Shown one piece after another: positions 24,533-27,500 of a stretch of DNA of 64,000 nucleotides. Made by a program: the position numbers and the translations under genes. Source of the DNA: the human T2T-CHM13v2.0 reference genome, Homo sapiens. Each line of letters begins with the position of its first letter. Positions within the stretch are counted from its first letter, which is position 1. The notes under the pieces are model-generated. The model made no database searches and was not told the DNA's origin. It saw nothing but the letters and a program-made list of their open reading frames with translations. The stretch lies in NCBI RefSeq assembly GCF_009914755.1, contig NC_060931.1. The stretch is one strand, 5' to 3'.

Positions 24533-27500
24533 TCAGTTCCCACCTATGAGTGAGAATATGCGGTGTTTGGTTTTTTGTTCTTGCGATAGTTTACTGAGAA
24601 GGATGATTTCCAATTTCATCCATGTCCCTACAAAGGACACGAACTCATCATTTTTTATGGCTGCATAGTATTCCATGGTGTATATGTGCCACATTTTCTT
24701 AATCCAGTCTATCATTGTTGGACATTTGGGTTGGTTCCAAGTCTTCGCTATTGTGAATAGTACCGCAATAAACATACGTGTGCATGTGTCTTTATAGCAG
24801 CATGATTTATAGTCCTTTGGGTATATACCCAGTAATGGGATGGCTGGGTCAAATGGTATTTCCAGTTCTAGATCCCTGAGGAATCGCCACACTGACTTCC
24901 ACAATGGTTGAACTAGTTGACAGTCCCACCAACAGTGTAAAAGTGTTCCTATTTCTCCACATCCTCTCCAGCACCTGTTGTTTCCTGACTTTTTAATGAT
25001 TGCCATTCTAACTGGTGTGAGATGGTATCTCATTGTGGTTTTGATTTGCATTTGTCTGATGGCCAGTGATGATGAGCATTTTTTCATGTGTCTTTTGGCT
25101 GCATAAATGTCTTCTTTTGAGAAGTGTCTGTTAATATCCTTTGCCCACTTTTTGATGGGGTTGTTTGTTTTTTTCTTGTAAATTTGTTTGAGTTCATTGT
25201 AGGTTCTGGATATTAGCCCTTTGTCAGATGAGTAGGTTGCGAAAATTTTCTCCCATTTTGTAGGTTGCCTGTTCATTCTGATGGTAGTTTCTTTTGCTGT
25301 GCAGAAGCTCTTTAGTTTAATTAGATCCCATTTGTCACTTTTGGCTTTTGTTGCCATTGCTTTTGGTGTTTTAGACCTGAAGTCCTTGCCCATGCCTATG
25401 TCCTGAATGGTAATGCCTAGGTTTTCTTCTAGGGTTTTTATGGTTTTGGGTCTAACGTTTAAGTCTTTAATCCATCTTGAATTAATTTTTGTGTAAGGTG
25501 TAAGGAAGGGATTCAGTTTCAGCTTTCTACATAAGGCTAGCCAGTTTTCCCAGCACCATTTATTAAATAGGGAATCCTTTCCCCATTGCTTGTTTTTCTC
25601 AGGTTTGTCAAAGATCAGATAGTTGTAGATATGCAGCATTATTTCTGAGGGCTCTGTTCTGTTCCATTGATCTATATCTCTGTTTTGGTACCAGTACCAT
25701 GCTGTTTTGGTTACTGTATCCTTATAGTATAGTTTGAAGTCAGGTAGCGTGATGCCTCCAGCTTTGTTCTTTTGGCTTAGGATTGACTTGGCGATGCGGG
25801 CTCTTTTTTGGTTCCATATGAACTTTAAAGTAGTTTTTTCCAATTCTGTGAAGAAAGTCATTGGTAGCTTGATGGGGATGGCACTGAATCTATAAATTAC
25901 CTTGGGCAGTATGGCCATTTTCACGATATAGATTCTTTCTACCCATGAGCATGGAATGTTCTTCCATTTGTTTGTATCCTCTTTTATTTCCTTGAGCCGT
26001 GGTTTGTAGTTCTGCTTGAAGAGGTCCTTCACATCCCTTGTAAGTTGGATTCCTAGGTATTTTATTCTCTTTGAAGCAATTGTGAATGGGAGTTCACTCA
26101 TGATTTGGCTCTCTGTTTGTCTGTTATTGGTGTATAAGAATGCTTGTGATTTTTGTACATTGATTTTGTATCCTGAGACTTTGCTGAAGTTGCTTATCAG
26201 CTTAAGGTGGTTTTGGGCTGAGACAATGGGGTTTTCTAGATATACAATCATGTCATCTGCAAACAGGGACAATTTGATTTCCTCTTTTCCTAATTGAATA
26301 CCCTTTATTTCCTTCTCCTGCCTAATTGCCCTGGCCAGAACTTCCAACACTATGTTGAATAGGAGTGGTGATAGAGGTTTCAAAGTTTTCCTTTGAAAAC
26401 TGTCTTGTGCCAGTTTTTCAAAGGGAATGCTTCCAGTTTTTGCCCATTCAGTATGATATTGGCTGTGGGTTTGTCATAGATAGCTCTTATTAATTTGAGA
26501 TACGTCCCATCAATACCTAATTTATTGAGAGTTTTTAGTATGAAGCGTTGTTGAATTTTGTCAAAGGCCTTTTCTGCATCTATTGAGATAATCGTGTGGT
26601 TTTTGTCTTTGATTCTGTTTATATGCTGGATTACATTTATTGATTTGTGTATATTGAACCAGCCTTGCATCCCAGGGATGAAGCCCACTTGATCATGGTG
26701 GATAAGCTTTTTGATGTGCTGCTGGATTCGGTTTGCCAGTATTTTATTGAGGATTTTTGCATCAATGTTCATCAAGGATATTGGTCTAAAATTCTTTTTG
26801 GTTGTGTCTCTGCCTGGCTTTTATATCAGCATGATGCTGGCCTCAGAAAATGAGTTAGGGAGGATTCCCTCTTTTTCTATTGCTTGGAATAGTTTCAGAA
26901 GGAATGGTACCAGTTCCTCCTTGTACCTCTGGTAGAATTCGGCTGTGAATCCATCTGGTCCTGGACTCTTTTTGGTTGGTAAGCTATTGATTATTGCCAC
27001 AATTTCAGAGCCTGTTATTGGTCTATTCAGAGATTCAACTTCTTCCTGGTTTAGTCTTGGGAGGGTGTATGTGTCAAGGAATTTATCCATTTCTTCTAGA
27101 TTTTCTAGGTTATTTGTGTAGATGTTTGTAGTATTCTCTGATGGTAGTTTGTATTTCCATGGGATCGGTGGTGATATCCCCTTTATCATTTTTTGTTGCG
27201 TCTATTTGATTCTTCTCTCTTTTCTTACTAGTCTTGCTAGCGGTGTATCAATTTTGTTGATCCTTTCAAAAAACCAGCTCCTGGATTCATTGATTTTTTG
27301 AAGGGTTTTTTGTGTCTCTATTTCCTTCAGTTCTGCTCTAATTTTAGTTATTTCTTGCCTCCTGCTAGCTTTTGAATGTGTTTGCTCTTGCTTTTCTAGT
27401 TCTTTTAATTGTGATGTTAGGGTGTCAATTTTGGATCTTTCCTGCTTTCTCTTGTGGGCATTTAGTGCTATAAGTTTCCCTCTACACACTGCTTTGAATG

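What the first reader, a model, noticed from the sequence alone, without database searches (positions are those of the whole stretch)
26371..26424. Fold-back templated insertion destroying the RT QGCPLSP motif, identical in two L1s
Seen: the 6 bp gcatcc (intact in L1-B at ~41340) are replaced by 22 bp tttcaaagttttcctttgaaaa (26378-26399), built from direct and inverted copies of the neighbouring cagttttcaaag, plus one extra T. This creates two overlapping hairpins. The same lesion is at 53719-53740 in L1-C. It frameshifts ORF2, so it is unlikely to have spread by cis-retrotransposition and unlikely to have arisen twice. Inference: one template-switch or theta-mediated repair event, later copied at the DNA level.
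Basis: partly seen in the sequence, partly recalled or inferred. Interest (0 to 1): 0.7.

Follow-up and report, generated by a model that had tools for sequence, protein, structure and literature searches.

The report
Repair scar copied between three retrotransposons
A 22-letter scar, likely made when a DNA end folded back and copied itself, sits letter for letter in three separate dead LINE-1 jumping genes on human chromosome 7, likely passed between them by gene conversion over 27 kb and 1 Mb, and six other LINE-1 copies carry different scars that begin at the same letter.

Summary
Observation confirmed. A 22-bp templated insert replaces 6 bp (codons G-C of QGCPLSP) in L1-A and L1-C; with an extra base the net change is +17. 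A genome-wide exact search finds a third copy, in a full-length L1 (D) 1.06 Mb away, against 6,528 exact copies of the intact site. A, C and D are separate insertions (4.0-6.9% apart outside the shared tracts). A and C share a 2.5-kb tract (5 differences in 2,496 bp); D shares only about 0.2-0.3 kb with them, including four private SNPs. So the lesion arose once and likely moved by two non-allelic gene conversions. The insert tiles as three fold-back copies of adjacent DNA (0 of 5,000 shuffles do as well). New here: the first fold-back step recurs at the same nucleotide in six unlinked L1s, each with its own right junction; one control site shows 0 of 22. L1-C is itself a chimera that marks a 9.4-kb deletion. 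The processes are known (synthesis-dependent end joining or template switching; conversion between repeats); this case and the recurrent site were not found in print. No function: ORF2 is broken elsewhere too.

The parts
26378..26399 (-). 22-bp templated insert replacing 6 bp of ORF2 in L1-A (chr7:32,824,378-32,824,399)
26411..26424 (-). Template and primer partner of the first fold-back, with the later extra base (T5 run 26414-26418)
   Evidence: inverted match is 13 bp to the four-base run, 10 bp to the five-base run
53719..53740 (+). Same insert in L1-C; extra base in the A5 run 53700-53704
24303..30369 (-). L1-A, full length, lacks the 128-bp 5'UTR segment; own 15-bp target-site duplication; empty site in two paralogues
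39257..45185 (-). L1-B, full length, intact at the lesion site (41340-41345), 120-bp ORF2 deletion near 41561; own target-site duplication; empty site in three paralogues
49643..55820 (+). L1-C, chimera: 5' ~4.65 kb of a near-full-length L1 with the 128-bp segment, joined to the 3' end of an older 5'-truncated L1 that a paralogue still holds; ~9.4 kb between them is missing
24796..27291 (-). A-side of the A/C conversion tract (5 differences in 2,496 bp)
52824..55322 (+). C-side of the A/C conversion tract
53521..53836 (+). Widest extent of the tract shared with L1-D (chr7:31,761,208-31,761,523; D spans about 31,757,318-31,763,490, +); A-side 26282-26597
49800..50051 (+). Separate B/C conversion tract in the 5'UTR (B-side 44752-45003; 1 difference in 231 bp tested)

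Best explanation
The insert is likely the scar of one end-joining or template-switch event, in which a DNA end likely folded back three times and copied adjacent sequence, and it was likely then carried into two more L1 copies by non-allelic gene conversion. Step 1 (fit shown, enzyme inferred): a sense-strand end at ...ACAG pairs its last three bases with CTG 14 nt upstream and is extended 10 nt; two more fold-backs on the new strand add about 6 nt each; the end is joined 6 nt downstream with no microhomology. Polymerase theta is the likeliest enzyme. Step 2 (inferred from the broken match): the template run gains one A. Step 3 (tract shown, direction unknown): a 0.2-0.3-kb conversion between D and A or C across about 1.1 Mb. 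Step 4 (tract shown): a 2.5-kb conversion between the inverted A and C, at least partly C to A, roughly 0.3-5 Myr ago. The first fold-back is set by L1's own sequence and recurs in other copies. The scar has no evident function.
For: Tiling in 3 pieces, 0 of 5,000 shuffles. Exact lesion in 3 places, all 7p14.3, versus 6,528 intact 31-mers; a 2-mismatch search adds only one non-L1 hit. A, B and D each have their own target-site duplication. A/C: 5 of 2,496 in the tract, 122 of 3,051 before, 33 of 478 after (Fisher p 4e-30). A/D: 2 of 316 in the tract, 4.4% and 4.3% outside (binomial p 8e-5). Four SNPs in the D tract are shared by A, C and D and absent from all 26-30 panel L1s scored. Two rare alleles at 54670 and 54985 are shared by A, C and the paralogue's truncated L1, giving C-to-A flow. 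Same first step with different right junctions on chr3, 6, 8, 9, 17 and Y, three with 2-3 nt of newly made microhomology; 0 of 22 at a control site (Fisher p 0.02 on independent origins).
Against: The right junction has no microhomology, so the classical last step of synthesis-dependent MMEJ is not seen in this copy. Replication template switching, or an error during L1 cDNA synthesis, would leave the same letters. Only one haploid assembly was available, so donor, age and polymorphism of the D tract are open. One A=C allele (53572) inside the D tract is missing from D, and one rare allele at 54842 is shared by A, B and C but not the paralogue, so the history is a patchwork. The control is one site, and its nearest 3-nt primer partner is 40 nt away rather than 14, so it is not a matched control.
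Confidence: 0.85

Rival explanations
1. The insert was made during insertion of one of these L1s, by ORF2p or a host polymerase switching template while making the second cDNA strand; the later conversions are as in the main reading.
For: All seven origins lie inside otherwise continuous L1s and start at one nucleotide on the sense strand; the extra A and SNPs postdate or flank it, so it can be as old as an element.
Against: All seven events also delete 6-16 nt to the right and three end in newly made 2-3 nt microhomology, the pattern described for SD-MMEJ (PMC5728401, passages).
Confidence: 0.2
2. A and C were homogenised by repeated inversion of the 25-kb segment between them rather than by non-crossover conversion alone.
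For: A and C are inverted, 6 kb long, and hold several shared tracts; L1 pairs of about 97% identity mediate inversions (PMC9675761, passages).
Against: A keeps matching target-site duplications on both sides; the inner and outer flanks have the same orientation as the paralogues; no inversion at chr7:32.82-32.85 Mb among the chr7 rows of Table S1 of PMC10150506 (first 30 of 61 'chr7' places read). It cannot explain D.
Confidence: 0.12
3. The site is a recurrent meiotic break site inside L1: a PRDM9-type motif next to it draws breaks, which end either as an end-joining scar or as conversion from a nearby L1, so scarred copies overwrite intact ones.
For: The only site in 5.9 kb of L1-B within one mismatch of the 13-mer CCTCCCTNNCCAC starts exactly at the right junction (motif as printed in PMC4230742); three SNPs fall in or next to it; theta-type scars occur at human hotspots (PMC7615360, passages).
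Against: Noticed after the fact; the mismatch is at a fixed position; the motif has been a target for only about 0.7-1.3 Myr while the lesion predates two conversions; no PRDM9 motif enrichment at LINE-LINE recombination junctions (PMC4344489, passages); D was found because it has the lesion, so its tract covering the lesion is no evidence.
Confidence: 0.07
4. The three copies descend from one lesion-bearing source element by retrotransposition or by segmental duplication.
For: The region is a segmental duplication (PMC1475853, passages).
Against: The elements differ by 4-7% outside the tracts, differ in a 128-bp 5'UTR segment, have different target sites, and D's flanks match nothing unique in the window.
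Confidence: 0.02
5. The third copy, or the A/C identity, is an assembly artefact.
For: Only one assembly was seen.
Against: D differs from A and C inside the tract, A and C differ at 5 sites, and tract edges grade into element-specific alleles.
Confidence: 0.03

Closest known systems
Synthesis-dependent MMEJ / polymerase theta templated insertions (PMC5728401, passages; PMC4912351, search listing only)
   Same: Snap-back on a 3-nt inverted primer close to the end, short synthesis, several rounds, small deletion; new microhomology in three of the six sister events.
   Different: Germline fossil inside a repeat; this copy's last junction is blunt; enzyme not testable.
Short-range template-switch mutations in apes (PMC7954356, passages)
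   Same: Cluster of direct and inverted copies of nearby sequence that makes a stable hairpin.
   Different: That model allows one reversed piece and filters out RepeatMasker-masked templates, so this three-piece event in an L1 falls outside its catalogue; recurrence at one site across copies.
Non-allelic gene conversion and recombination between dispersed repeats (LINE-LINE NAHR, PMC4344489, passages; LTR conversion, PMC4921805, listing only; recombinant full-length L1s, PMC13192797, passages)
   Same: Identity tracts with sharp edges inside independently inserted elements of about 95-96% identity; elements stay in place.
   Different: An unrepeatable 22-nt tag marks two successive transfers, one across about 1.1 Mb, among four L1s with several tracts.
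L1-L1 recombination-mediated deletion (PMC9675761, passages)
   Same: L1-C is a chimera of two same-strand L1s with the DNA between them lost.
   Different: Dated by a paralogue inside the same genome; the chimera then served as a conversion donor.

Membership tests
SD-MMEJ / theta-type templated insertion | Insert plus primer is a direct or inverted copy of sequence within about 30 bp of the junction | tested here: met
   13-bp inverted copy, primer partner 14 nt upstream; 3-piece tiling beats all shuffles
SD-MMEJ / theta-type templated insertion | Primer repeat of at least 1 bp at each round | tested here: met
   3-nt primer in round 1; 1-2 nt in rounds 2 and 3
SD-MMEJ / theta-type templated insertion | Microhomology of at least 1 bp at the final join | tested here: not met
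   None in A/C/D; 2, 2 and 3 nt in the chr8, chr6 and chrY events
SD-MMEJ / theta-type templated insertion | Dependence on polymerase theta and a double-strand break | not testable with these tools
   Needs a break-repair assay
Non-allelic gene conversion | Bounded tract of near identity in otherwise diverged paralogues | tested here: met
   A/C 0.2% vs 4.0% and 6.9%; A/D 0.6% vs 4.3-4.4%
Non-allelic gene conversion | Shared derived alleles absent from other family members | tested here: met
   Four SNPs, extra base and insert shared by A, C, D; the extra base alone does recur in other L1s
Non-allelic gene conversion | No exchange of flanks | tested here: met
   Matching target-site duplications at A and D; flanks collinear with paralogues. 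An even number of inversions is not excluded.
Non-allelic gene conversion | Unconverted ancestral allele in other haplotypes or species | not testable with these tools
   No other human or ape genome is held; only the 3' part of C has a paralogue
L1-L1 recombination-mediated deletion (L1-C) | Chimeric element without target-site duplication; ancestral locus longer | tested here: met
   No duplication at C; paralogue has about 9.4 kb more and the truncated L1 with its own duplication. The pre-deletion state with both L1s was not seen.
PRDM9-A hotspot | Match to the 13-mer motif | tested here: inconclusive
   One mismatch at a fixed position; best site in the element
PRDM9-A hotspot | Break or binding signal in testis | not testable with these tools
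   Needs DMC1-SSDS or ChIP data

The most novel reading that the evidence does not exclude
This position of L1 ORF2 is a built-in germline break-and-fold-back hotspot: thousands of L1 copies act as a natural repair reporter in which one 3-nt primer channels breaks into a family of scars, and scarred copies then overwrite intact neighbours up to a megabase away, a small conversion drive within the L1 family, possibly aimed by the adjacent PRDM9-like motif.
Probability: 0.1. Interest if true: 0.75.

Novelty: new member of a known kind. Interest (0 to 1): 0.45.

Why it matters
It is an unusually clean natural record of two germline processes that are hard to prove in repeats. A complex tag that cannot arise twice shows that dispersed L1s exchange sequence without moving, even across about 1.1 Mb, which blurs the dating and subfamily calls of single L1 copies and keeps a 2.5-kb near-perfect inverted repeat that could seed a 25-kb inversion in DPY19L1P1. 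The six sister scars suggest a method: treat the many copies of L1 as repeated trials of one repair substrate and read primer choice and synthesis length in the primate germline directly. It changes no gene and gives L1 no new function.

Tried and rejected
Segmental duplication as the carrier: rejected; paralogues at chr7:35.2, 22.66, 29.85 and chr12:63.58 Mb have empty sites for A or B, and the one with part of C holds only its 3' 1.5 kb, beyond the lesion. D as donor of C's whole 5' part: no run of C=D rare alleles outside the short tract (the 'CD' rows inside the 128-bp segment are an alignment artefact of a panel that lacks it). Further D tracts at columns 778-1056 and 2095-2226 (permutation p 0.016 and 0.046): not backed by shared rare alleles. 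Direction of the D transfer: not resolvable. Known inversion here: none found. Indels near the site in 15 loci chosen for odd length were not counted as hotspot evidence because the choice was biased. The first automatic parse of the sister junctions mis-set the return points and was redone. Earlier findings of the scan were not open. No protein, fold or complex search was needed.

Full report
Observation. The net change is +17. ORF2 of A and of C is also cut into pieces upstream, so the lesion did not by itself decide their fate.

How the insert is built. On the L1 sense strand the end ...ACAG can pair with CTG 14 nt upstream; extension gives the first 10 inserted bases. With the primer this is a perfect 13-bp inverted copy of the four-A template seen in B, but only 10 bp of the five-A template now in A and C, so the extra A most likely came after the synthesis. 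The remaining 12 bases are two further copies, readable as fold-backs on the new strand (stems of 7 bp with a 4-nt loop and 8 bp with a 5-nt loop) or as direct copies of the upstream template. Three pieces suffice with a 1-nt primer, four with a 2-nt primer; 0 of 5,000 shuffles and 0 of about 4,640 random L1 22-mers tile as well in any of six settings. The final join has no microhomology. This matches the snap-back route of synthesis-dependent MMEJ in primer length and distance (PMC5728401, passages) except for that last step. Polymerase theta is my inference; replication or cDNA template switching would leave the same letters.

Where it occurs. An exact 29-nt search of the whole assembly gives three hits: A, C and chr7:31,761,401. 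A 22-nt search with two mismatches adds one hit in non-L1 DNA. Similarity searches with 351-nt and 64-nt queries return the same three on top (40 of 2,920 candidates scored, 38 of 38). The intact 31-mer has 6,528 exact hits. The third copy, D, is a full-length plus-strand L1 with its own target-site duplication and flanks unrelated to the window.

The three are separate insertions. A and B have their own target-site duplications and empty sites in paralogues of this segmental duplication (A in 2 of 2 fetched; B in 3 of 3). C and D keep a 128-bp 5'UTR segment that A and B lack. From recall, that segment is the ZNF93-binding stretch lost during L1PA3, which would make these L1PA3/L1PA4-age elements; no call tested the subfamily names.

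Conversion tracts. A and C differ at 5 of 2,496 sites in A 27291-24796 / C 52824-55322, against 122 of 3,051 before and 33 of 478 after (Fisher p 4e-30). D differs from A at 2 of 316 sites around the lesion and at 4.4% and 4.3% outside (p 8e-5). In that short tract A, C and D share four SNPs absent from a panel of 30 intact L1s (26-30 scored per site); the panel is the first 30 exact hits on chr1, not a random draw. One A=C allele inside the tract (53572) is missing from D, which suggests that the D transfer came before the last A/C homogenisation. At 0.5-1e-9 per site per year (assumed), the A/C tract dates to about 1-2 Myr (range 0.3-4.7) and the D tract to 3-6 Myr (range 0.4-23). Other tracts exist: B=C in the 5'UTR (1 of 231, six shared rare alleles), A=C near ORF1/ORF2 (4 of 501), and a weaker A=B run.

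L1-C is a chimera, which gives a direction. C has no target-site duplication. Four paralogues continue with other sequence at window 49645 and rejoin at about 55830-55846. The closest one (chr7:29.84 Mb) holds a 5'-truncated L1 of about 1.5 kb with its own 15-bp duplication; its 3' end is 3.0% from C but 6.4-7.1% from A, B and D. About 9.4 kb upstream of it is missing from the window. The simplest reading is a full-length L1 inserted at 49643 that recombined with the older truncated one. Two rare alleles of that older element (54670, 54985) are now in A as well, so at least this part flowed from C to A. One allele (54842; A, B, C but not the paralogue) does not fit a single transfer. The lesion lies in the younger 5' part of C.

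The first step recurs. Among 22 genome hits where the exact 16-nt left flank is followed by two non-G bases, 7 read TTTT: the three copies above and four others on chr6, 8, 9 and 17; 13 are substitutions or 1-2 nt deletions and 2 are unrelated junctions. Two more with a flank mismatch lie on chr3 and Y. Each has its own outcome: 4-7 nt of first-round synthesis, 8-16 nt deleted, 2-3 nt of new microhomology in three, a clear second fold-back of 7 nt in the chr3 copy. A control site 347 nt downstream gave 22 hits, 21 substitutions and one unrelated junction, no fold-back; 5 of 20 against 0 of 21 independent origins, p 0.02. The control is a single site with a more distant primer partner. The test end ranks 147 of 3,600 ORF2 positions for a hairpin closing at the 3' end: good, not extreme. 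So the site is prone to this event; whether breaks are also more frequent there is not shown.

A weak lead. The only site in L1-B within one mismatch of the PRDM9-A 13-mer begins at the right junction (motif as in PMC4230742, passages). I noticed it by eye, the looser form of the motif has four sites within one mismatch, the motif is young (0.7-1.3 Myr), and a study of LINE-LINE recombination found junction clustering but no motif enrichment (PMC4344489, passages). About 7%.

Inversion. A and C are inverted, but A's duplications match and the inner and outer flanks are collinear with the paralogues. Table S1 of PMC10150506 lists no inversion at this place (first 30 of 61 'chr7' places in that file, covering chr7p in Table S1; no hit for six id prefixes in 3 files). 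Supplements of bioRxiv preprints were closed and other inversion catalogues were not seen.

Literature. Templated insertions, short template switches and recombination between L1s are all in print: PMC5728401, PMC7615360, PMC7954356, PMC4344489, PMC9675761, PMC13192797 and PMC1475853 (passages read); 10.1101/2023.08.09.552703 (abstract: template switches are frequent during gene conversion in yeast); PMC4921805 and PMC4912351 (search listings only). PMC7954356 filters out repeat-masked templates. Searches showed no paper on this locus's L1s or on a recurrent fold-back site in ORF2; only listings were seen for most hits and subscription journals are largely missing.

Verdict. Real, well supported, functionless; a new and unusually well-marked case of known processes, with two additions worth a genome-wide follow-up: conversion across about 1.1 Mb and a recurrent fold-back site. 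Interest 0.45.

Noticed in passing
window 49643-55820; L051 (chr7:29.84 Mb): L1-C is a chimera marking a deletion of about 9.4 kb relative to the closest paralogue; 5' junction has 3 nt of microhomology.
   Followed up: yes
window 44752-45003 and 49800-50051; 28047-28500 and 51600-52070; 29154-29329 and 43977-44152: Further conversion-like tracts: B=C in the 5'UTR, A=C near the ORF1/ORF2 boundary, A=B in ORF1.
   Followed up: partly
L080, L089-L093 (chr3:73.376, chr8:112.635, chr17:61.354, chr6:18.228, chr9:25.117, chrY:21.356 Mb): Six unlinked L1s with independent scars starting at the same nucleotide by the same fold-back.
   Followed up: yes
L074 and L075 (chr10:1.304 and 1.220 Mb): Two L1s on opposite strands, 84 kb apart, share an identical 6-bp insertion next to the same site: a second possible conversion pair.
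   Followed up: no
L062-L071 (chr11:94.15-94.24 Mb): At least 17 equally scoring L1 matches spaced about 5,633 bp apart: a tandem array built on an L1 segment.
   Followed up: no
window 41561: L1-B has a 120-bp in-frame-length deletion in ORF2 relative to A, C and D.
   Followed up: no
window 29490-30080, 44337-45338, 49404-49907: The annotated enhancers coincide with the 5'UTRs of L1-A, B and C; the B/C conversion tract lies in two of them.
   Followed up: no
window 31100-35600 and 45200-49645: These map 57 kb apart in the chr7:35.2 Mb paralogue but about 8 kb apart here once L1-B is removed, so the duplication is a mosaic with another large gap, probably near 38016.
   Followed up: no
window 23648-24316 and 30355-30760: L1-A sits in an older LTR-like repeat; the paralogues have about 1.6 kb more sequence just right of the empty site.
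   Followed up: no
chr2:201,511,691 and 201,520,620: Two L1 stretches 9 kb apart share the same rare variant at the control site.
   Followed up: no
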